Shown here piece after piece: positions 6,335 through 17,163 of a stretch of DNA of 64,000 bases. Positions within the stretch are counted from its first letter, which is position 1. Each line of letters begins with the position of its first letter. The stretch is taken from assembly GCA_963816215.1 (NCBI GenBank), contig CAWFKB010000001.1:54298-118297 (forward strand). The letters are read 5' to 3'. Source of the DNA: an uncultured Chloroflexia bacterium. GTDB lineage: Bacteria > Chloroflexota > Limnocylindria > QHBO01. The notes beneath the pieces are model-generated. The model did no database searches, was not told the DNA's origin, and saw only the letters and a list, made by a program, of their open reading frames with translations. The position numbers were made by a program, and so were the translations under genes.

Positions 6335-7237
6335 CTACGCTGGCCAGCCCCCGGCCTGGCCCACCTTCGAGGCCAGCGGCCGGCCCAGCACCGTGCTGAT
6401 GGATTCGGCGGCACGCAGTACACCGTCCAGGTCGACTCCGTGGCGCAGGCCCTCGCGGTCCAGCAGGTAAACCAGGTCCTCGGTGGCCAGGTTGCCCGCC
6501 GCGCCGGGCGCGTACGGGCATCCTCCGGTCCCGCCCGTGCTCGCGTCGAAGCACCGGATGCCCAGACCGATGGCGGTCGCCACGTTGGCGACCGCGGTCC
6601 CGCGCGTGTCGTGGAAGTGCATCGCCAGCCGATCCGGACCGATGCCGGCGCCCGCCAGGGCGCCGATCACGCGCCGTACGTCGGCCGGACCGGCGACCCC
6701 GATCGTGTCACCGATGCTCAGCTCGTCCACGCCCAGCGCGAGCAACCGTTCGGCGACGCTCACCACCGCATCGGTCGAAATCGGTCCCTCGTACGGGCAG
6801 CCGAAGGCGGTGGACAGGTAGCCGCGGATCCACCACCCGTTGGCCCGCCCGTGGGCGACGACCGGCGCGAAGGCGGCCAGCGACTCGTCGATGGACATCC
6901 CGATGTTGTGCTGGGTGAAGGTCTCCGAGGCCGCGGTGAAGACGCAGACCGCGTCGACGTGGGCGGCGATCGCCCGCTCCAGTCCCCGGGCATTGGGGAC
7001 GAGGACGGGATAGCGGACCCCCGGCCGCCGGTCGAGGCGGGCCATCAGGTCGTCGGCGTCGGCCAGCTGCGGAATGGCGGACGGGGCCACGAACGACGTG
7101 GCCTCGATCTCGCGCAGGCCGGCGTCGGCCAGCACGCCCAGGAACGCGAGCTTGTCCTCGGTCGAGATGGGCTGCGCCTCGTTCTGGAGCCCGTCTCGGG
7201 GTCCCACCTCGTAGATCCGCACGTCGACCTGGGCCAC
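6335..7237 (-). CDS. liuE: Hydroxymethylglutaryl-CoA lyase
   Basis: EVGPRDGLQNE, HFHDTRG, GGCPYAPGAAGNLATED. Confidence 0.95.
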   Translation of the reverse strand: MAQVDVRIYEVGPRDGLQNEAQPISTEDKLAFLGVLADAGLREIEATSFVAPSAIPQLADADDLMARLDRRPGVRYPVLVPNARGLERAIAAHVDAVCVFTAASETFTQHNIGMSIDESLAAFAPVVAHGRANGWWIRGYLSTAFGCPYEGPISTDAVVSVAERLLALGVDELSIGDTIGVAGPADVRRVIGALAGAGIGPDRLAMHFHDTRGTAVANVATAIGLGIRCFDASTGGTGGCPYAPGAAGNLATEDLVYLLDREGLRHGVDLDGVLRAAESISTVLGRPLASKVGQAGGWPA

Positions 7238-7284
7238 GACCGCCATTCTAGGTGCGCCGTTCCCTGCGCCCGATCACATCGGCT

Positions 7285-8573: not shown

Positions 8574-9574
8574 CCGGCGCCGTGACCTGGGACCTCGCGC
8601 GGGCTGCTGGACTGGTGGCCTACGTGTTCCTGACCGCATCGGTCTCCCTGGGCATCGCGCTCAGCCTGGGCTGGCGGACCGCGCGCTGGAATCGGTTCGT
8701 GACCAACGAGGTCCATCGGTTCGTCACCCTCCTGGCACTCCTCTTCCTGGTGCTCCACGGCATAGCCATCGTGGTCGACCCGTTCATCAAGATGAGCGTG
8801 AGCGACGTGCTCGTCCCGTTCACCACGACCTATCGGCCGCTGTGGGTTGGCCTGGGAATCCTGGGCGGATACCTCGTTGCCGCGGTGTACTTCTCCGAGC
8901 GGGTGCGCAGTCGGATCGGCTACGCGTGGTGGCGGCGGTTCCACGGCCTGGCATTCGCCGCGTTCCTCATGACTCTCCTGCACGGGATCGCGACGGGCAG
9001 CGACACCCGCGCGCCGTGGGCGTTGGCCCTGTACGGAGGCAGCGCACTGCTGGTCGCGGTCCTGCTCGGGCTGCGGCTCCTGCCCGCGCCGCCGGCACGT
9101 CACCGCCCGGTGATCGCGGTCATCGCTGCGTCGGTCCTGGTTGCGGTCGTGTCCTTCACGGTGTCCCAACCGCTCCAGCCAGGCTGGAGCGCCCGAGCGG
9201 GCGGCACCATTCCGGCAGGTGTGACTGCCGCCACGGCCTCGACCTCCGGCCTGGGCGTCACCGTGTCCAAGCCGCTCACGTTTGATGGGCAGATTGCTCG
9301 GTCCGAGAACACGATCCAGGTGACCGGCGAGACACAGGACGGAACGGCGGCGTTCCGAGTGCAGCTCACGGGCACCGAGGAAGGGGTCGGTGGGCAGATC
9401 GTCATGAACACCGGGACGGCCCAGGTCTGCGAAGGCCCGGTGACCCAGATCGGCGACACCACGATCGATGCCACCTGCTCGACAGCCGGTGGCACCTGGT
9501 CCCTCCGGATTGCGGTGCTGTCGGCGTCGGAGAGCCAGATCACCGGGACGCTCGAGGTCGCGCCCCGCTCCTAG
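8570..9574 (+). CDS. Ferric reductase/MsrQ-like heme b membrane protein with a C-terminal beta-rich domain
   Basis: Six TM segments; His pairs VHRF...VLHG and FHGL...LLHG; WRRFH and GSD motifs. Confidence 0.85.
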   Translation: MTGAVTWDLARAAGLVAYVFLTASVSLGIALSLGWRTARWNRFVTNEVHRFVTLLALLFLVLHGIAIVVDPFIKMSVSDVLVPFTTTYRPLWVGLGILGGYLVAAVYFSERVRSRIGYAWWRRFHGLAFAAFLMTLLHGIATGSDTRAPWALALYGGSALLVAVLLGLRLLPAPPARHRPVIAVIAASVLVAVVSFTVSQPLQPGWSARAGGTIPAGVTAATASTSGLGVTVSKPLTFDGQIARSENTIQVTGETQDGTAAFRVQLTGTEEGVGGQIVMNTGTAQVCEGPVTQIGDTTIDATCSTAGGTWSLRIAVLSASESQITGTLEVAPRS

Positions 9575-11569
9575 GTTTGGGCGACCTCGGCCAGGAGATC
9601 GCCGCGCTGCACCTGGTCACCGGCTCGCACGTGGATTGCGGTGACGGTCCCGGCCATGGGCGAGCTGACGGCGTGCTCCATCTTCATGGCCTCGATCACG
9701 ACGACCGGGTCGTGCGCCGCCACCGGGTCCCCCGCGTCGTGTCGCACCGCGACGACGCGCCCAGGCATGGGCGCGTGGAGCAGCGCGCTTCCGTCGACGT
9801 GGCTGGCATGGCGCACCGCTTCGTCCACGCTGGGCGGGCTGGCGATTCGAAACTCCAGGGACTGGCCGTCGACGTCGACGAATGCCGTGTCTCCGCGGCT
9901 CGCCACACGTCGATCCGAGGGTTTCGGACGCACGGAACGCTCTTCTGGACCATGGATCACCCGGATCGTGGGCCCGGCGTTCAACCGCCAGCCCCCTGAC
10001 CAGGGACTCGCTGTTCCCTCCGCGCCGACGAGCGCGGCTGCTGCCGCCTCCCACGCGTCGTCCGGAGGGGTGATAGGCCCGGGAAGGGGGAGGTGGGCGA
10101 CGGTGTCCGTGCGCATCTCGCCGTCGACGAAGGAGGGTTGCTCGAATAACCAGCGAAGGAAGTGGAGGTTGGTCCGCACGCCCAGGACGTGGGTGTCGGC
10201 GAGCGCGGCCCGCATCTCCTCTACCGCAGCCGTCCGGCTGGGTCCGTGAACGATGATCTTGGCCAGCAGCGGGTCGTATCGGTCGCTGACGAGGTCTCCT
10301 TCGCCGATTCCGGCGTCCACTCGAATCCCTTCCCCGTCCGGGAGGTGCAGCTCGACCACGCGGCCGGTGGCGGGGAGGAAGCCGGCCTCAGGATCCTCCG
10401 CGTACAGGCGGGCCTCGATGGCGTGGCCGTTCCATCGAACCGCCGCCTGCTCGACGCCGAGTGGCTCGCCGGCCGCGATCCGCAGCTGGTCGGCGACCAG
10501 GTCCCGCCCCGTCACCGCCTCGGTGACCGGGTGCTCCACCTGGAGGCGGGTGTTCATCTCGAGGAAGAAGAAGTCGCCGTCATCGGTCACCAGGAACTCC
10601 ACCGTTCCGGCTCCGACGTAGCCGGCGGCGGAGGCAACCCGCAGGGCGGCTTCGCCGAGCGACCGGCGCAGAGACCGATCCACCGATGGCGCAGGAGCCT
10701 CCTCGACGACTTTCTGCTGGCGCCGCTGGGTGCTGCAGTCCCGCTCACCCAGGTGCACCCCGTGGCCGTGGGCGTCGAACAGGACCTGGACCTCGACGTG
10801 GCGTGGGTTCTCGACGAGCCGTTCGAGGATGAGCCGATCGTCCCCGAACGCGGCCATGGCCTCTCGTCGCGAGGCGGCGAGCTCGTCGGGCAAGGCCTCC
10901 ACGGAACGAACCTGGCGCATGCCTTTGCCGCCGCCCCCGGCGGCGGGTTTGATGAGGAGCGGCAGACCGATGTCGACGGCCGCGGTCGCCAGGGTGGCTG
11001 TCGTCCTGGATCGGGTCGTCATAGCCGGCGACGACGGGGACCCCATGCGCGGCCGCCAGCCGGCGCGCGGCCGCCTTGTCACCCATGGCTTCGATGGCCG
11101 CCGGGGGCGGGCCCACCCAGATCAGTCCGCTGGCCGTCACTGCCGACGCGAAACCGGCGTTCTCCGCCAGGAACCCGTACCCCGGGTGAATCGCGTCCGC
11201 TCCAGCCCGGCGCGCGGCGTCCAGGATCGCGTCGCCGTCGAGGTAGGACGGGATCTGGAGGGCCAGGTCGCCGCCGGCGGGCGCAGGCTCGTCAGCCTCG
11301 TGGACGCGGATGACCCGTATGCCCAGCCGGTGTGCGGTGCGGGCCACGCGGACGGCGATCTCGCCGCGGTTGGCGATCAGGACCGCCCGGATGGGATGGG
11401 CCGGAGCGGCCGCCTCCGCGCCGACTGCGGAGAGCGATGCACGGGCAACGCGCATCCGCCCGCCGACCCGCGCGCCGGGGAGACGACCCGATGCGATCCA
11501 GCGCTGGACGGTCCGGACGGTGACGCCCAGCTCCTCGGCGACCTCGCGCGGGGTCAACTCGTCGCGCAC
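9571..11569 (-). CDS. liuD: 3-methylcrotonyl-CoA carboxylase alpha subunit (biotin carboxylase + carrier) with N-terminal Xis-like HTH; frameshift near 11000
   Basis: LIANRGEIA, HPGYGFLAEN, GGGGKGMR, EMNTRLQVEHPVTE, EAMKM biotinylation motif. Confidence 0.9.
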
Positions 11570-11605
11570 GTCGCGATTGTCGCAGCCGCGCCGCCTAGCG
11601 GCCGG

Positions 11606-12403
11606 TCAGTCCGCGGTGCCTCTCCAGGCTGGGTCGCGCTTCTCGAGGAAGGCGGACAGGCCTTCCTGTCCTTCCTCGCTGGAACGCTGGCGGGCGATGG
11701 CCGCGACGGTCAGCGCCCGGGCCTGCGCGGGCGGCTGGCCGCGGAGCTTTCGGATGAGTGCCTTCGCCTCGCGCACCGCGGTCGGGCCGGCGGCCAGCAG
11801 CTCGCCGACGAGCTCGTTGATGCGCGCATCGAGCGCGACTTCGTCCGCGACGACCTCGTGGACGAGACCGATGTGGCGTGCCCGGTCCGCGCCGAAGCGG
11901 CTGCCGGGCGGGAAGAGGGCGCGTGCGTTCGACTCCCCGATCTTGGCCAGCGCATACGGACCGATGACCGCGGGCAGGATCCCCAGCCGCGTCTCGGTGA
12001 ACCCGAACGTGGCGTCGGCGGTGGCCACCACGACGTCCGACACGGCGCACAGGCCCATCCCGCCCCCCAGGGCCGCGCCCTGGACCCGCGCGATGACCGG
12101 GACCGGACAGGTGTCGATGGTCTCGAGCATGACCGCCAGTCGCGTCGCGTCGGCCTCGTTGGCCGCCTCGTCGAGCGCCGCCGCCGATCGCATCCAGGCC
12201 ACGTCGGCACCGGCGCAGAACGTTGGCCCGGCCCCCGCCAGCACGACGGCGCGCAGCGCATCCGCAGGCTCCGCGGCGAAAGCGGCAAAGGCATCGGTCA
12301 GGGCGGAAACGAGCTCGGGATTGAAGGCGTTCCGGACGTCGGGCCGGTCCAGGGTGACGCGCGCCACCACCCCGTCGCGTTCGACGCGGAGGGGATCGGT
12401 CAT
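11606..12403 (-). CDS. liuC: Enoyl-CoA hydratase, likely methylglutaconyl-CoA hydratase
   Basis: RPDVRNAFN, FCAGAD, ALGGGMGL, ETRLGILPA; liu context. Confidence 0.88.
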   Translation of the reverse strand: MTDPLRVERDGVVARVTLDRPDVRNAFNPELVSALTDAFAAFAAEPADALRAVVLAGAGPTFCAGADVAWMRSAAALDEAANEADATRLAVMLETIDTCPVPVIARVQGAALGGGMGLCAVSDVVVATADATFGFTETRLGILPAVIGPYALAKIGESNARALFPPGSRFGADRARHIGLVHEVVADEVALDARINELVGELLAAGPTAVREAKALIRKLRGQPPAQARALTVAAIARQRSSEEGQEGLSAFLEKRDPAWRGTAD

Positions 12404-13206
12404 CCGTGCCCGCGGTGGATTGGCTCGGCGACGGCCCGCACTCCGGTCAACAACGGATCGGTCAGCCAGCGTGCTTCGACGCCCTCGGGCGCCTCCGGCA
12501 GCGCGCCACCCCCACCGACCAGGCCCAGCACCAGCGCCCATCCCTGTCCGATGTCGGCCTCGACCAGGTATGCCTCGCGAACGCCCGGCCAGCCCGCCAC
12601 CGTGACGGCGGCGGCCTGTTCCAGCGCTGCTGCCTCCGGCCCGGGCAGCCGCACCCGGATCGAGGTGCCACCGCCCTCGGTCAGCAGTGGTTCATCGGTC
12701 CCGGGCAGGCGTCCGGCCGCGAGATCGGTCAGCTCATCGGGCTCGAATCGGTAGGGAATCGGTCCGGCGGGATCGAGGATGGCCGGCAGGCCGGCCGCGG
12801 CCAGGTTGGAAAGGGCAATCCGGGCCGGGACCGCGAGGGACGTCGACCCGAGCGGCGACCAGGCGGCCAGCGCCGCATGCGACCCGAACACGATGCTCAC
12901 CGGGTTGCCGTCCACACCGCGGCCCAGCAGGACTCCGACCTCGACCTCTGCCTCGTCGTCCACGACCTGGCCCACCGCCTCGCGAGCCTGCTCCTCGGCG
13001 CCCGGCGGGACAGGGAGAAGCAGCGTGCCGGTGCCCAGGGCCCGATAGAACGCGTGGAGGGGCGCCAATTCGTCGGTCCCCTCCGCGTCGCGGGCGGCCA
13101 ACGCCGCCTCGTACAGCATCGCGGAGCTCTCTTCGAGGCTCCCGCTCGGAACATCGCGGGCGTGCGAGCCGGGAATCGGCCGCTCGTCGGATGGCGTGTC
13201 GGACAT
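12400..13206 (-). CDS. SseB family protein
   Basis: FYRAL..GTLLLP, F.SHAALAAW, ILDPAGP, C-terminal PGVREAYL; 4-nt overlap with liuC. Confidence 0.6.
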   Translation of the reverse strand: MSDTPSDERPIPGSHARDVPSGSLEESSAMLYEAALAARDAEGTDELAPLHAFYRALGTGTLLLPVPPGAEEQAREAVGQVVDDEAEVEVGVLLGRGVDGNPVSIVFGSHAALAAWSPLGSTSLAVPARIALSNLAAAGLPAILDPAGPIPYRFEPDELTDLAAGRLPGTDEPLLTEGGGTSIRVRLPGPEAAALEQAAAVTVAGWPGVREAYLVEADIGQGWALVLGLVGGGGALPEAPEGVEARWLTDPLLTGVRAVAEPIHRGHG

Positions 13207-13253
13207 CGCGGCCAGCCTACCGAATCGTCCGCGGCGACGGGTAGGATCGGAGC

Positions 13254-13997
13254 ATGGCCGACGGCATTGACCACCTCGTCCTGGCCGTCGCCGACCTCGA
13301 GCCGCAGCCGACGCGCTGGAGCGCGACGTTGGCCTGATCTGCACCGGAGGCGGGCGACACGAGGGACTGGGCACCGCCAACCGGATCGCGTTTCTGGCCG
13401 ATGGAAGCTACGTCGAGCTGATGGCTGTCGAGGACCCGGCGGTTGCCTGTCCTGGCCCATCGGTCGCGAGCCACTCTCCGTGCCCTGGACGCGGGCAGCG
13501 GGTTGGCAGCCGTCGCGCTGAATGACGACGATCTGCCGACCACGTGTCCGCTCTCCGAGCGGCGGGAGCTCGCATTGGCCTGCCCAACGTCGGGGCTGCG
13601 GCGGCGTCCCGACGGTGAGGTCGTCCGGTGGTGGACGGCTGTTGCCGAACCGATGGCGCGCCGACGCGCTTCCGTTCCTGATCCGCCACGACCGGCGGGC
13701 GCGAGTGGGGCCTGGCCGCGGTGGCCGCCCGGGCGTCCATCGCGCATCCGGCCGGTCGGACCGGTTCACCTGCCCCAGCTCGACCTGCCCGTGCCCGATC
13801 GGCAGGGCTCGCCGCGCTCCACCTCCGTGAACTGGGCATGGAGTTCACCGCCAGGTGACGGGCAGTGGCTGCCATCGTGCACCCTCGTTCGACTCGTGCC
13901 GGACGCTCCGAATACGCCACCCACGGTCGCCCTCCGGGTCAATGGTTCGCCGCGGACCGTCAAGGCCTTCCGCATGACCTGGGAGTTGAGTCGGTAG
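13254..13997 (+). pseudogene. VOC/glyoxalase-like protein with multiple frameshifts
   Basis: IDHLVLAVADL, GGRHEGLGTANRI...SYVELM, VRWWT and LPFLIRH are spread over different frames. Confidence 0.75.
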
Positions 13998-14890: not shown

Positions 14891-16490
14891 CTACATCCGG
14901 AAGACACCGAACCGCGTCTCGCCGATCTCCTGGTTCAACGCTGCGCTGATGCCCATCGCCAGGACTCGCCGCGTGTCCAACGGATCGATCACCCCGTCAT
15001 CCCACAGGCGCGCGGTGGAGAAGTAGGGCGAGCCCTGGCGCTCGTACTCGGCCAGGATCGGCGCCTCGAATGCGTCCCTGTCCGCATCGGTCGGCGAAGT
15101 CGCCGCGCACGGTGGACAGGACACGGGCGGCCTGGGCCCCGCCCATGACGCTGATCCGGGCGTTGGGCCACATCCACAGCTGACGCGGCCCATACGCCCG
15201 CCCGGCCATGCCGTAGTTCCCTGCCCCGAACGACCCGCCGATGATCACCGTGAACTTGGGCACGGCCGTGGTCGACACCGCGGTCACCAGCTTGGCGCCG
15301 TCCTTGGCCAGGCCGCCGGCCTCGTACTCCCGACCGACCATGAATCCGGTGATGTTCTGGAGGAAGACGAGCGGGATCCGGCGTTGCGACGCGAGCTCGA
15401 TGAAATGCGCGCCCTTGAGCGACGATTCGCTGAACAGGATGCCGTTGTTGGCCAGGATCCCGACCGGGTAGCCCTCCAGCCGCGCGAAGCCACAGACCAA
15501 CGTCTCCCCGTACCGCTCCTTGAACTCGTGGAACTCGCTGCCGTCCACCAGCCGCGCGATGACCTCGTGGACGTCGTAGGTGTGGCGCGGGTCCGCCGGG
15601 ATGACGCCGTACAGCTCGTCCGGATTGACCGATGGCGGCGCTGCCGCCGTCACCTCCCAGGGCGGCTCCGGCTTGCGCCAGGCGAGGTTGCGCACGATGG
15701 AGCGGGCAATGGCCAGGGCGTGCTCGTCGTCGAGGGCGTAGTGATCGGCCACGCCGCTGGTCACGGTGTGGACCTCGGCCCCGCCCAGCTCCTCGGCAGT
15801 GACGACTTCCCCGGTGGCCGCCTGTACCAGCGGCGGGCCGCCGATGAAGATCGCCCCGGTCCCGCGCACGATGACGGTCTCGTCGCTCATGGCCGGCACG
15901 TACGCCCCGCCAGCCGTGGAATGGCCCATCACGACCGCGATCTGGGGAATGCCGCGCGCCGAGAGATGGGCCTGGTTGTAGAAGATCCGGCCGAAGTCGT
16001 CCTTGTCCGGGAACACCTCGTCCTGGAGCGGGAGGTACGCGCCGCCGCTGTCCACCAGGTACAGGCACGGGAGCCGATTCTCGAGCGCGATCTCCTGGGC
16101 CCGCAGGTGCTTCTTCACGGTCATCGGGAAGTAGGTGCCGCCCTTGACCGTCGCGTCATTGGCCACGACCACGCACTCCACACCCTCGACCCGGCCGATC
16201 CCGGTCAGGATCCCGGCCCCGGGGGCGTCGTCGTCGTACAGGCCCGTGGCCGCCAGCGCGGACAGCTCCAGGAATGCGCTGCCCGGATCGATGAGCCAAT
16301 CCACGCGCTCGCGGACGGGGAGCTTGCCGCGCTCCCGGTGACGCGCGATGGAACGCTCGTCCCCCGCCGCGCCGTTGGCGCTGATCCGTGCCGTCCGCGC
16401 GCGCAGCTCCGCAACCAGGGAGGCCATGGCTGTCGCGTTGGTCGCGAATGACTCCGACGCGGGGTTGAGGGTGGAGCGGAGGACGGCCAT
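14891..16490 (-). CDS. liuB: 3-methylcrotonyl-CoA carboxylase beta subunit; frameshift near 15087
   Basis: [42 protein letters not shown]...FGVFRM. Confidence 0.93.
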
Positions 16491-16553
16491 GACCGTCCGA
16501 TTATCCCGGCCGGTGGCTCTTCCCGGAGCGCGCCGCGGCAGCGGCGCTATCGG

Positions 16554-17111
16554 TCAGGCGAGGCTGACCAGCGGAACGATCTCTGTGACGTGCGCCGAAT
16601 TGACGATCACGACCGAGACGACGTGCTCGAAGGCCGGCTCGCCGTGGTAGAGCATGTGCGCCTCGGTCAGCGGGATGAAGGCGGGGAGCTGGTACGGGTC
16701 CGGAAACGCGGCGCCGGGTGGCAGGTGCAGGTTGCCCGTCACCGTGAACGGCCCGGCGTCGGTTGCCACGCGCTGGATCCGTCGGTGGAGGCGGAGCTGG
16801 CGGTTCGTGCGCCACTCGGGGGGCATGACCAGGACGACGTCGGTGGTCGTGACGGTGCGCCACTCGCCGGACTTGTCGAGGATCGGGCGCAGCGGCAGCT
16901 CCTCACTACCGGCCCGGGGCTGCCACAGGCGAAGCTCGTCGCTGGCGAGCAGCAGGTCGGTGACCCGCTGACCCTTGGACGCGATCCACCCGACGACCCG
17001 CGTGTCGGCGGTATAGAGCTCGATGGGCGCCAGATCCGTGCCCGTGGCCAGCGCCGCTGCGCCGGAGGTCGCGGTGCCCGCACCACCTCGGCGCCAGTTC
17101 CAGAACGTCAC
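16554..17111 (-). CDS. Hypothetical beta-rich protein, possibly two tandem small domains (DUF6812-like)
   Basis: IELYT...QRVTDLL and VTGNLHLPPG...FIPLTEA...VIVN segments. Confidence 0.55.
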   Translation of the reverse strand: MTFWNWRRGGAGTATSGAAALATGTDLAPIELYTADTRVVGWIASKGQRVTDLLLASDELRLWQPRAGSEELPLRPILDKSGEWRTVTTTDVVLVMPPEWRTNRQLRLHRRIQRVATDAGPFTVTGNLHLPPGAAFPDPYQLPAFIPLTEAHMLYHGEPAFEHVVSVVIVNSAHVTEIVPLVSLA

Positions 17112-17163
17112 GGGCCAAACCTACCGGCTGGGTGCGGTTGCGAACAGAACCCGTGAGTACTGG

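What the first reader, a model, noticed from the sequence alone, without database searches (positions are those of the whole stretch)
9571..11569. Biotin carboxylase LiuD fused to an N-terminal Xis/MerR-like DNA-binding HTH: candidate enzyme-regulator
Seen: the ORF starts MRDELTPREVAEELGVTVRTVQRWIASGRLPGARVGGRMRV and runs in frame through a short Ala/Pro linker into IRAVLIANRGEIA. The frameshift near 11000 is far downstream, so it does not create the fusion. GACAAT lies 6 nt before GTG 11569, and no ATG/GTG start is evident between the HTH and the carboxylase. Known: this N-terminal pattern is the excisionase/HTH_17 (BldC-like) fold; MCC alpha subunits normally begin at the IANRGE strand; liu genes are often controlled by a separate MerR-family LiuR, which is absent from this window. 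Inference: a PutA/BirA-style trigger enzyme linking carboxylase state to transcription of leucine catabolism. I know of no characterised example.
Basis: partly seen in the sequence, partly recalled or inferred. Interest (0 to 1): 0.85.

Follow-up and report, generated by a model that had tools for sequence, protein, structure and literature searches.

The report
DNA-binding domain fused to leucine-pathway carboxylase
A soil and freshwater bacterial lineage makes its methylcrotonyl-CoA carboxylase alpha subunit with a small DNA-binding domain on the front, and an unchanging 15-base DNA element sits at the start of that same gene, so the enzyme probably controls its own production.

Summary
On the minus strand, GTG 11569 opens a frame that runs from an HTH_17/excisionase-type winged helix (49.3 bits, cut-off 27) through a short linker into a biotin carboxylase. 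A one-base insertion at 10999 breaks this copy only.

The fusion is conserved. All 120 best database hits carry it. So do 38 of 41 genomes of the same family and at least 7 of 23 of a sister family (Chloroflexota; source names say Candidatus Limnocylindria). The helix is under the same purifying selection as the catalytic domains (dN/dS 0.24 against 0.27), while the linker evolves almost freely (0.83). Its nearest solved relatives are a phage Xis and BldC bound to DNA (41% identity), and BldC's base-reading residues are kept.

New here: the 15-mer TGCGACAATCGCGAC abuts the start codon in 35 of the 38 genomes. It is essentially single-copy per genome and overlaps a leaderless-type -10 element.

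Best reading (about 0.5): the alpha subunit represses its own promoter. Nothing links it to the other liu genes or to enzyme state, and binding is untested. I found no published description. I rate it a new variant of the enzyme-regulator kind.

The parts
11570..11584 (-). 15-nt element TGCGACAATCGCGAC directly before the GTG start. It reads as TG-n-GACAAT (extended -10-like) plus CGCGAC, and contains GCGAC-N4-GCGAC (9-bp period) and AAT. Candidate operator overlapping a leaderless promoter.
   Evidence: Sequence. Unique exact copy in the 2-Mb genome. At most 1 mismatch in 37 of 41 family genomes, against 5 for the reversed control. Within about 12 nt upstream of the fused gene in 35 of 38 genomes that have the gene. 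Columns -15..-1 at least 90% conserved, flanks 30-60%. Present in the sister family with 2-4 nt extra before ATG.
11429..11569 (-). Start codon GTG (11567-11569) and the winged helix-turn-helix domain, aa 1-47 (HTH_17 / TIGR01764 excisionase type, BldC/Xis-like).
   Evidence: Pfam 49.3 bits. PDB sequence hits Xis 4j2n, BldC 6amk/6ama, RacA. AlphaFold2 model pLDDT 86. Foldseek TM 0.80 to Xis, 0.73 to the BldC-DNA complex. Median dN/dS 0.235. Invariant P7 A11 R19 V21 Q22 R23 W24 R34 G36 R38 R40.
11393..11428 (-). Flexible linker, aa 48-59. Its length and sequence vary among orthologs.
   Evidence: The alignment shows about 10-30 unconserved residues. dN/dS 0.83.
11000..11392 (-). Biotin carboxylase N-terminal domain and the start of the ATP-grasp domain, up to the frameshift.
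   Evidence: Biotin_carb_N 104 bits. Aligned to orthologs.
10999..10999 (-). Single extra base that shifts the frame. It is unique to this assembly.
   Evidence: Protein alignment. Sequence. One 151-nt contig of run X3 (4 other differences, depth 2) leaves out one letter at 10999: table 4. All 19 extracted orthologs are intact at 662-689 aa.
9571..10998 (-). Rest of the alpha subunit in the shifted frame: ATP-grasp (GGGGKGM loop), Biotin_carb_C, BT region and BCCP domain with the EAMKME biotinylation motif. The stop codon is at 9571-9573.
   Evidence: Pfam CPSase_L_D2 218 bits, Biotin_carb_C 124, Biotin_lipoyl 69. Ortholog P0001 aligns with P. aeruginosa MCC alpha 3u9s, residues 56-662 to 4-650.
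11606..12403 (-). Enoyl-CoA hydratase (methylglutaconyl-CoA hydratase-like, LiuC position), directly upstream.
   Evidence: ECH_1 164 bits. NCBIfam best hits are a crotonase-family model (NF005675) and gamma-carboxygeranoyl-CoA hydratase, both below their cut-offs. Syntenic in 20 of 20 related loci.
12400..13219 (-). SseB-domain gene (likely start ATG 13206) with a -10-like TAGGCT at 13214-13219, 7 nt before the start.
   Evidence: Pfam SseB 40 bits. Start inferred from orthologs. GGTAGGCT is conserved but the spacer to the start codon varies. This serves as the internal promoter control.
14997..16553 (-). Carboxyltransferase beta subunit of methylcrotonyl-CoA carboxylase type (LiuB/MccB). It is separated from the alpha gene by DNA that seems to hold opposite-strand gene(s).
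   Evidence: Carboxyl_trans 473 bits. PDB: MCC beta 3u9r 705 bits, against geranyl-CoA carboxylase 428 and PCC beta 243. Synteny.
6335..7246 (-). HMGL-like gene (candidate HMG-CoA lyase, LiuE position), 2.3 kb downstream.

Best explanation
The gene encodes the alpha subunit (biotin carboxylase, BT region, biotin carrier) of a methylcrotonyl-CoA carboxylase. Throughout this Chloroflexota class it carries an N-terminal BldC/Xis-like winged helix-turn-helix on a flexible linker.

I propose that this domain binds the invariant 15-bp element TGCGACAATCGCGAC. The element overlaps the gene's own leaderless promoter: the -10-like GACAAT, a 6-nt discriminator, then the transcription start at or 2-4 nt before the start codon. 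Alpha subunit bound there would block RNA polymerase and so limit its own synthesis. The 9-bp-spaced GCGAC repeats and the single AAT patch suggest BldC-style head-to-tail binding by two or more domains.

Shown:
- the fusion, its conservation and the selection on it;
- the fold and the retained DNA-contact residues;
- the element, its position and its single-copy conservation;
- the prevalence of leaderless promoters in this genome.

Inferred:
- that the helix binds this element;
- that binding represses;
- any dependence on assembly with the beta subunit, on substrate or on biotinylation.

In this assembly the gene is interrupted by one extra base at 10999, more likely an assembly error than a true pseudogene.
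For: 1. Fusion conserved.
- 120 of the 120 listed best hits (of 7997 significant) carry PF12728 plus the carboxylase domains, mostly at 660-690 aa.
- The helix plus the IANRGE junction is found in 16 of 16 family genomes in the phylum sample and 38 of 41 in the family sample, including 22 of 22 good-quality genomes.
- At least 7 of 23 sister-family genomes have it.
- 19 of 19 extracted orthologs are intact.

2. Selection. Median dN/dS over 120 pairs is 0.235 for the helix, 0.83 for the linker, and 0.27-0.31 for the BC and BCCP domains.

3. DNA-binding fold.
- Sequence hits in PDB: Xis 4j2n E 9e-5, BldC E 1e-3, RacA.
- The model has pLDDT 86.
- Foldseek: TM 0.80 to Xis; TM 0.73 and 41% identity to BldC-DNA complexes; then RacA-DNA and MerR N-domains on DNA.
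- By the alignment, BldC's contacts K26, R30, W31, H46 and R48 (PMC5859096, section 10) fall on R19, R23, W24, R38 and R40. All five are invariant in 20 sequences.

4. Cis-element.
- It is exact and unique in the own genome.
- It occurs with at most 1 mismatch in 37 of 41 family genomes (32 exact), against 5 of 41 for the reversed control.
- It lies within about 12 nt upstream of the gene in 35 of 38 genomes. One further genome has a 2-mismatch copy.
- A recognisable copy sits before 7 of 7 sister-family fused genes, 5 of them with at most 1 mismatch.
- The conserved block is sharply bounded.
- Nine of 81 chance-dominated metagenome occurrences are also followed by the same helix ORF.

5. Promoter context.
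- TANNNT hexamers are followed 6-7 nt later by a good start codon in 15-25% of cases, against a 1.6% baseline. The figures are 8 of 65 for CACAAT and 5 of 115 for GACAAT.
- The base after the element is always A or G, while the start codon floats by 0-4 nt.
- In the neighbouring SseB-like promoter only the -10 is conserved. Full 15-nt invariance therefore exceeds ordinary promoter constraint.

6. Precedent for the binding mode. BldC binds 9-bp direct repeats AATTXXXX(C) head to tail (PMC5859096). The element contains AATCGCGAC.
Against: - No binding experiment exists, and no RNA data were available. No listed sequencing run is on record as RNA, so the transcription start is inferred.
- The element can be read entirely as a promoter (TG-n-GACAAT, discriminator, +1). 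Its invariance could reflect a special promoter or a different protein.
- The genome encodes three other HTH_17 proteins, among them a short ORF whose likely product is about 60 aa and Xis/BldC-sized.
- Similar 9-bp GCGACA tandem repeats lie upstream of gyrA in 15 of 17 family loci. They do not track the fusion in the sister family: 0 of 5 genomes with it and 0 of 5 class genomes without it. Some factor other than this protein may therefore read GCGACA repeats.
- One family genome (G196) has the fused gene without the element; there the gene abuts the hydratase stop codon.
- BldC needs an AT-rich patch in each repeat. Here only one repeat has one.
- Within the class no unfused ortholog was found to serve as a negative control. 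Co-occurrence of helix and element is therefore confounded with descent.
Confidence: 0.5

Rival explanations
1. The helix is a functional DNA-binding domain, but the 15-mer is not its target. The element is simply a highly constrained leaderless promoter, or the site of another regulator. The enzyme's helix binds elsewhere, for example tethering the carboxylase to the nucleoid as RacA tethers, or regulating other genes.
For: - The element fits an extended -10, discriminator and +1 layout, and leaderless promoters are common here.
- Other HTH_17 proteins exist in the genome.
- GCGACA 9-bp repeats upstream of gyrA in 15 of 17 family loci show that some factor may read this half-site independently of the fusion.
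- RacA is among the structural neighbours.
Against: - The ordinary promoter next door keeps only its -10.
- The element is single-copy per genome and tied to the fused gene in 35 of 38 genomes, and across two families despite 45% protein divergence.
- No second conserved site was found in the liu cluster.
Confidence: 0.28
2. The N-terminal domain no longer binds DNA. It serves protein-protein contacts, for example assembly or filament formation of the carboxylase, or another non-regulatory role.
For: Winged helices are sometimes reused for protein contacts (general knowledge). MCC enzymes can form higher-order assemblies (titles and abstracts of PMC12776079 and 10.1101/2022.08.19.504621, seen in the listing).
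Against: The residues that contact DNA in BldC (K26, R30, W31, H46, R48) correspond to invariant R19, R23, W24, R38 and R40. The domain is joined by a variable, nearly neutral linker, not packed against the enzyme. All close structural neighbours are DNA binders, many solved on DNA.
Confidence: 0.1
3. This particular copy is a true pseudogene: the base at 10999 is real and this organism has lost the enzyme. On this reading it is not an assembly error.
For: The window sequence as given carries the extra base. Only one low-depth contig argues otherwise.
Against: - The rest of both frames is free of stops and about 85% identical overall (93% over aa 1-180) to intact orthologs.
- 19 of 19 orthologs are intact.
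- A near-identical environmental contig lacks the base.
- Frame breaks in other conserved genes occur in 3 of 20 related assemblies: the CT gene in L121 and L127, the hydratase in L129. Indel errors therefore seem common in these assemblies.
Confidence: 0.3
4. The fusion is an annotation artefact: the helix and the carboxylase are separate products, or the helix is untranslated.
For: None beyond the general caution that N-terminal extensions can be miscalled.
Against: There is no stop and no usable internal start between the helix and the first strand of the carboxylase. The frame is continuous in 19 of 19 orthologs. The helix is under purifying selection. The conserved promoter-like element sits before the helix, not before the carboxylase.
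Confidence: 0.02

Closest known systems
BldC of Streptomyces (small MerR-like winged helix; PDB 6ama, 6amk)
   Same: Same fold, with 41% identity over 49 columns. There is no coiled-coil or effector domain. BldC's base- and groove-reading residues are conserved. The candidate site has 9-bp-spaced direct repeats and an AAT...C unit resembling BldC's AATTXXXX(C).
   Different: BldC is a free 68-residue protein with a developmental regulon. Here the domain is the N-terminus of a 665-aa enzyme. The candidate site is GC-rich with one AT patch, and only one site per genome is evident.
Phage and ICE excisionases (Xis of mycobacteriophage Pukovnik, 4j2n; TIGR01764)
   Same: Best sequence and structure match. 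Scores over the NCBIfam 'excise' cut-off.
   Different: No integrase or mobile element context. The neighbours are conserved leucine-catabolism genes. This argues for a regulatory or structural role and against a recombination-directionality role.
Enzyme-regulators with a fused DNA-binding domain (BirA biotin ligase/repressor; PutA; NadR; archaeal RbkR)
   Same: [quoted passage not shown] BirA is also in biotin metabolism (BirA passage in PMC3199775; RbkR appears).
   Different: Not homologous. In those proteins the link between catalysis and DNA binding is established and the targets include pathway operons. Here only a site at the protein's own gene is seen, and no ligand link is known.
Self-control of E. 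coli acetyl-CoA carboxylase subunits (AccB on accBC transcription; carboxyltransferase on its own mRNAs)
   Same: Carboxylase subunits limiting their own synthesis. [quoted passage not shown]
   Different: Here the subunit carries an explicit DNA-binding domain and there is a defined candidate operator. The enzyme (MCC) and the lineage also differ.
LiuR (MerR-family regulator of liu genes in Proteobacteria)
   Same: Distantly related helix-turn-helix class; same pathway. No paper on LiuR was read.
   Different: LiuR is a separate, dimeric MerR protein with a coiled-coil and effector region. This domain lacks both and scores below the MerR cut-offs.

Membership tests
Methylcrotonyl-CoA carboxylase alpha subunit (biotin carboxylase + BT + BCCP) | Biotin_carb_N, ATP-grasp, Biotin_carb_C and biotinyl domains in order, with the AMKM biotinylation motif | tested here: met
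   Pfam hits. EAMKME is visible. Full-length alignment to P. aeruginosa MCC alpha 3u9s.
Methylcrotonyl-CoA carboxylase alpha subunit (biotin carboxylase + BT + BCCP) | Partner beta subunit of MCC type and pathway neighbours | tested here: met
   The CT gene scores 705 bits to MCC beta, against 428 (GCC) and 243 (PCC). Hydratase and HMGL-like genes are nearby. Synteny in related loci.
Methylcrotonyl-CoA carboxylase alpha subunit (biotin carboxylase + BT + BCCP) | Substrate specificity for 3-methylcrotonyl-CoA | not testable with these tools
   Inferred from similarity only. NCBIfam has no equivalog hit above its cut-off.
Methylcrotonyl-CoA carboxylase alpha subunit (biotin carboxylase + BT + BCCP) | Uninterrupted reading frame in this genome | tested here: not met
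   One extra base at 10999. Orthologs are intact. One environmental contig lacks the base.
HTH_17 / excisionase-family DNA-binding domain (PF12728, TIGR01764) | Profile score above the curated cut-off | tested here: met
   49.3 bits against 27. 46.6 against 28.8 on P0001.
HTH_17 / excisionase-family DNA-binding domain (PF12728, TIGR01764) | Strand-helix-turn-helix-wing-helix fold | tested here: met
   Model pLDDT 86 with the expected elements. TM 0.80 to Xis.
HTH_17 / excisionase-family DNA-binding domain (PF12728, TIGR01764) | Binds DNA | not testable with these tools
   Only indirect: conserved contact residues.
BldC family | Small stand-alone protein made only of the winged helix | tested here: not met
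   The domain is fused to a 600-aa enzyme in all members.
BldC family | Head-to-tail binding to 9-bp direct repeats with an AT-rich patch and a C-G four bp on | tested here: inconclusive
   The element holds GCGAC-N4-GCGAC and AATCGCGAC. Only one repeat has the AT patch. No binding data.
MerR family (including LiuR) | MerR profile above cut-off, plus C-terminal coiled-coil dimerisation and effector region | tested here: not met
   MerR scores 24.9 against 28.2, and MerR_1 20.3 against 21.6. The helix is followed by a variable linker and then the carboxylase.
Trigger enzymes / bifunctional enzyme-repressors (functional class, not a homology family) | Same polypeptide has catalytic activity and sequence-specific control of gene expression | not testable with these tools
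   The architecture and a candidate operator fit. Activity and binding are untested.

The most novel reading that the evidence does not exclude
The methylcrotonyl-CoA carboxylase holoenzyme is itself a transcription factor. Its alpha subunits, displayed in groups at the ends of the complex, use BldC-like winged helices to bind head to tail on the 9-bp GCGAC repeats that overlap the alpha gene's leaderless promoter. Occupancy would then depend on how much alpha is free, assembled with beta, or engaged with substrate. That would make it the first biotin-dependent carboxylase with direct, DNA-level feedback on its own synthesis. In the window's family it might also act on the similar repeats before gyrA.
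Probability: 0.35. Interest if true: 0.8.

Novelty: new variant of a known kind. Interest (0 to 1): 0.66.

Why it matters
Self-limitation of carboxylase subunit synthesis has been proposed for E. coli AccB, but without any DNA-binding motif to explain it (PMC11602165). Here a carboxylase subunit carries an explicit, conserved DNA-binding domain and has a precise, invariant candidate operator. The idea can therefore be tested directly with a 58-residue domain and a 30-bp duplex, with no need to culture the organism.

It would add a biotin carboxylase to the short list of enzymes that double as transcription factors. It would also extend the BldC-type binding mode to a fused, enzyme-borne domain.

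The lineage is common in soil and freshwater metagenomes (source labels). Automatic pipelines currently name these proteins 'excisionase family DNA binding protein', which hides a core leucine-catabolism enzyme.

Tried and rejected
- Genome-contig scan. It returned 80 ordinary carboxylases. The three with apparent N-terminal extension of the match (L004, L010, L011) have no helix. It therefore says nothing about other phyla.
- Helix matches outside the class in the phylum sample. The many on short ORFs (about 60-390 aa) I took to be stand-alone proteins without inspecting them. The one long-ORF hit I translated (L112) is a PAS-protein fusion. The other long-ORF hits were not examined.
- Regulon search. 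The 15-mer with up to 3 mismatches is no more frequent than its reversed control (85 against 77). Secondary 1-mismatch hits in relatives are coding or inconsistent. No copy lies upstream of the carboxyltransferase or SseB-like operons.
- The recurrent GCGACATTCGCGACGAAAGCGAC is gyrA coding sequence, not a site.
- Metagenome scan for the 15-mer. 72 of 81 occurrences are unrelated chance matches, 9 precede the helix ORF (one of them about 39 nt downstream), and 1 had too little DNA downstream to judge. It adds examples but is not a specificity test.
- Negative control by unfused orthologs. The five sister-family genomes without the helix hold only AccC-type carboxylases at 46-52% identity, so no such control exists.
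- No sigma-70 consensus promoter or intrinsic terminator in 9300-13600. No Rfam family: the one hit has E 0.21, far below its gathering score.
- No RNA holder was listed among the sequencing runs. No run holds more than 28% of the sampled words, so the source sample was not found.
- Literature. No paper describing a helix-turn-helix fused to a biotin carboxylase turned up. The 'helix-turn-helix' in PMC12776079 is a structural motif of the beta subunit. Supplementary files were not opened. The BldC paper's supplementary figures may hold binding details that I did not see.
- In one search my 'BCc' query was cut out of frame by mistake. Its rows are meaningless and were not used.
- The dN/dS values rest on saturated synonymous sites (pS about 0.5) and are used only for comparison between domains.
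- I did not run complex prediction or the protein-atlas search, and did not use the second structure job.


Full report
**What is in the window**

On the minus strand, GTG 11569 opens a 274-codon frame. Pfam reads it as HTH_17 at aa 5-47 (49.3 bits, cut-off 27), followed after twelve residues by Biotin_carb_N at aa 60-159. A second frame, 9571..11082, carries the ATP-grasp, Biotin_carb_C and biotinyl domains.

Alignment with three intact 665-aa relatives shows that the two frames are one gene, interrupted after ...DDPIQDD by a single extra base. That base is the minus-strand 'a' at window 10999.

No in-frame ATG, GTG or TTG lies between codon 40 and codon 74. The carboxylase therefore cannot be made without the helix.

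**What enzyme it is**

The intact ortholog P0001 is 93% identical over aa 1-180. It aligns over its whole length, from residue 56 on, with the Pseudomonas aeruginosa methylcrotonyl-CoA carboxylase alpha subunit. No solved carboxylase covers residues 1-55.

The carboxyltransferase gene at 14997..16553 scores 705 bits to MCC beta, against 428 to geranyl-CoA carboxylase and 243 to propionyl-CoA carboxylase beta. An enoyl-CoA hydratase lies directly upstream. An HMGL-like gene lies 2.3 kb downstream. The LiuD/MccA assignment is well supported by similarity and context. Substrate specificity is not tested.

The own genome is a 2.0-Mb, 16-contig assembly, 92% complete. It has three biotin carboxylase paralogues, and only this one carries the helix.

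**The fusion is conserved and selected**

- Database proteins. Among longer proteins in the database, all 120 listed best hits carry PF12728 together with the carboxylase domains. Sources name them 'excisionase family DNA binding protein', 'acetyl-CoA/propionyl-CoA carboxylase...' or 'MAG: Candidatus Limnocylindria / Chloroflexota'.
- Cluster representatives. In a full HMMER pass over 50%-identity representatives, 17 of the top 150 start at query residues 1-5. The rest start at about 55-62, so they are ordinary carboxylases.
- Phylum sample. In 401 genomes of the phylum, the helix-plus-junction query hits 16 of 16 genomes of the window's family. It hits long open frames in 7 of 23 genomes of a sister family. 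Elsewhere most matches lie on short ORFs, which I took to be stand-alone proteins. The one long-ORF hit I checked is a PAS fusion.
- Family sample. In 41 genomes, 38 have it, including 22 of 22 good-quality genomes. The three misses are 80%, 81% and 55% complete.
- Intact orthologs. Nineteen orthologous genes extracted from related genomes are all intact, at 662-689 aa.
- Selection by domain. Across 16 family orthologs (120 pairs), median dN/dS is 0.235 for the helix and 0.83 for the linker. It is 0.27, 0.27 and 0.31 for the three BC parts, 0.45 for the BT region and 0.31 for BCCP. Synonymous sites are near saturation, so only the comparison between domains is meaningful. It shows a functional domain on a free linker whose length varies from about 10 to 30 residues.

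**What kind of domain it is**

The 60 N-terminal residues find mycobacteriophage Pukovnik Xis (E 9e-5), Streptomyces BldC (E 1e-3) and RacA among solved structures. An AlphaFold2 model built on 20 orthologs has pLDDT 86 and a strand-helix-helix-wing-helix layout.

Foldseek ranks Xis first (TM 0.80). Then come BldC-DNA complexes (TM 0.73, 41% identity), RacA-DNA, and the DNA-bound N-domains of MerR proteins. The MerR profiles themselves score below their cut-offs, and there is no coiled-coil, so this is not a MerR/LiuR-type protein.

BldC reads DNA with Lys26 and Arg30 in the major groove, Trp31 on the backbone, and His46, Arg47 and Arg48 of the wing in a narrowed AT-rich minor groove (PMC5859096, section 10 read in full). 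By the HMMER alignment, these fall on R19, R23, W24, R38, M39 and R40. All but M39 are invariant in the 20-sequence alignment. The residue mapping is my inference from that alignment.

**A new observation: an invariant element at the gene's own start**

When the upstream regions of 20 related loci were lined up on the start codon, the 15 bases TGCGACAATCGCGAC appeared directly before the ATG or GTG in 13 of 17 family loci, counting the window. Two more loci (L114, L128) carry a one-base variant, and L125 carries the exact 15-mer one codon further upstream. L122 has none. Recognisable variants appeared in the sister family.

- Boundaries. Columns -15 to -1 are at least 90% conserved, while the flanks are 30-60% conserved, which is the level of unrelated GC-rich DNA.
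- Copy number. In the own genome the exact 15-mer occurs once. With at most one mismatch it occurs in 37 of 41 family genomes (32 exact), nearly always once. The reversed control occurs in 5.
- Position. Comparing coordinates, it lies within about 12 nt upstream of the fused gene, on the same strand, in 35 of the 38 genomes that have the gene.
- The three exceptions. One has a two-mismatch copy in place. One was not examined. One (G196) has the gene abutting the hydratase stop, with no element.
- Sister family. Three further fused genes have the exact or one-mismatch element followed by 2-4 nt and ATG. Counting as well, 7 of 7 show a version.
- Metagenomes. Nine of 81 occurrences of the 15-mer, most of which are chance matches in unrelated organisms, are also followed by the same helix ORF.

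**How the element reads**

In this genome, TANNNT hexamers are followed 6-7 nt later by a credible start codon in 15-25% of their occurrences, against a 1.6% baseline. CACAAT does so in 8 of 65 and GACAAT in 5 of 115. Leaderless promoters are therefore the rule here.

The element fits that layout: TG, one base, GACAAT, six bases, then a purine. In the window's family that purine is the first base of the start codon. In the sister family it is an A lying 2-4 nt before the ATG. So the gene very probably has its own promoter, separate from the SseB-like/hydratase operon upstream.

That operon's promoter is a useful control. Across the same genomes only GGTAGGCT is conserved, and the spacer to the start codon varies in sequence and length. 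Full invariance of 15 positions, discriminator included, over lineages whose proteins differ by up to 45% is more than a promoter normally shows. It suggests an overlapping protein-binding site.

The element contains GCGAC-N4-GCGAC. In the window's genus a third GCGAC follows nine bases on, inside codons 2-3. It also contains AATCGCGAC, which resembles the 9-bp BldC unit AATTXXXX(C) bound head to tail (PMC5859096, passages and section 10). Only two triple GCGAC-N4 arrays exist in the whole genome.

**Most likely mechanism**

The alpha subunit binds its own promoter through the N-terminal winged helix and limits its own transcription.

What supports this is listed in the sections above: the conserved fusion, the selection on the helix, its fold and retained contact residues, and the element with its position and conservation.

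That the helix is what binds the element is inferred. So are the direction of the effect and any dependence on the beta subunit, substrate or biotinylation.

I put this at about 0.5. The main rival, at about 0.28, is that the element is a special promoter or the site of another factor, and that the helix acts elsewhere.

Arguments for the rival:
- Three other HTH_17 proteins are encoded in the genome, including a short ORF whose likely product is about 60 aa.
- Tandem 9-bp GCGACA repeats stand before gyrA in 15 of 17 family loci. They are absent before gyrA in 5 of 5 sister-family genomes with the fusion and in 5 of 5 class genomes without it. They do not track the fusion.

Limits on the evidence:
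- No unfused ortholog exists within the class to act as a negative control.
- The element was not found before the other liu genes.

**The frameshift**

A 151-nt contig of run X3 differs from the window at four other positions and has depth 2. It leaves out exactly one letter at 10999. No other examined genome has the break: open frames are at least 660 aa in the 34 of the 37 other genomes where the match is not cut short.

Frame breaks in other conserved genes appear in 3 of 20 related assemblies. I favour an assembly error, at about 0.7. The source reads were not found.

**Novelty**

Five of the six full-text searches were aimed at such a fusion (one search fetched the BldC paper). They found no description of a DNA-binding domain fused to a biotin-dependent carboxylase.

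The nearest published ideas are:
- BirA, an enzyme-repressor in biotin metabolism (passage in PMC3199775).

The architecture is already present in public protein sets under automatic names, so the proteins themselves are not new. The recognition of the conserved fusion together with its candidate operator appears to be new. I file it as a new variant of the enzyme-regulator kind.

Tallies include a few unpublished genomes. The counts without them are given under Tried and rejected.

Noticed in passing
Own genome contig C11:51606-51628 (outside the window); related loci L150-L178: Two to four tandem 9-bp repeats of (G/A)CGACAnnn lie 20-50 nt before the gyrA start in 15 of 17 loci of the window's family. 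They are absent before gyrA in 10 of 10 genomes of other families of the class, with or without the fused carboxylase. The half-site is the same as in the 15-mer. The binder is unknown.
   Followed up: partly
Whole own genome; example at window 13207-13219 (minus strand): Leaderless-type promoters appear to be the norm. TANNNT hexamers are followed 6-7 nt later by a credible ATG/GTG in 15-25% of occurrences, against a 1.6% baseline. The SseB-like gene and the opposite-strand ORF starting at 13443 seem to have such promoters back to back within about 45 nt in several relatives.
   Followed up: partly
window 12400-13206 (minus strand): An SseB-domain protein of unknown role is conserved between the carboxyltransferase and the hydratase in 16 of 16 family loci, but was not detected in the four sister-family loci. 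It probably heads the operon just upstream of the fused gene.
   Followed up: partly
L122 (G196:C9) and L192 (G196:C2): In one family genome the fused gene lacks the 15-mer and starts right at the hydratase stop codon. A one-mismatch copy of the 15-mer sits in an intergenic region on another contig. This may be a natural rearrangement that could inform the element's role.
   Followed up: partly
L121, L127 (carboxyltransferase) and L129 (hydratase): Conserved genes in three related assemblies are split between reading frames. Single-base indel errors may therefore be common in assemblies of this lineage.
   Followed up: no
Own genome C2:124657-124671 (outside the window); L193 (G115:C12): Near-copies of the element (AGCGACAATCGGGAC, TGCGACAATCGCGGC) also sit 0-1 nt before the ATG of unrelated genes. 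This fits GACAAT-N6 acting as a leaderless promoter in its own right.
   Followed up: partly
L112 (G167:C499), another family of the phylum: An HTH_17 domain fused to a long PAS-domain protein. It is another example of this small helix being placed at the front of a larger protein.
   Followed up: no
window 16554-17120 (minus strand): A conserved 189-aa protein beginning ...TFWNWR has no Pfam or NCBIfam match. It precedes the carboxyltransferase in all family loci, behind a conserved TAGTACT-type -10 and a Shine-Dalgarno-like GGAG.
   Followed up: no
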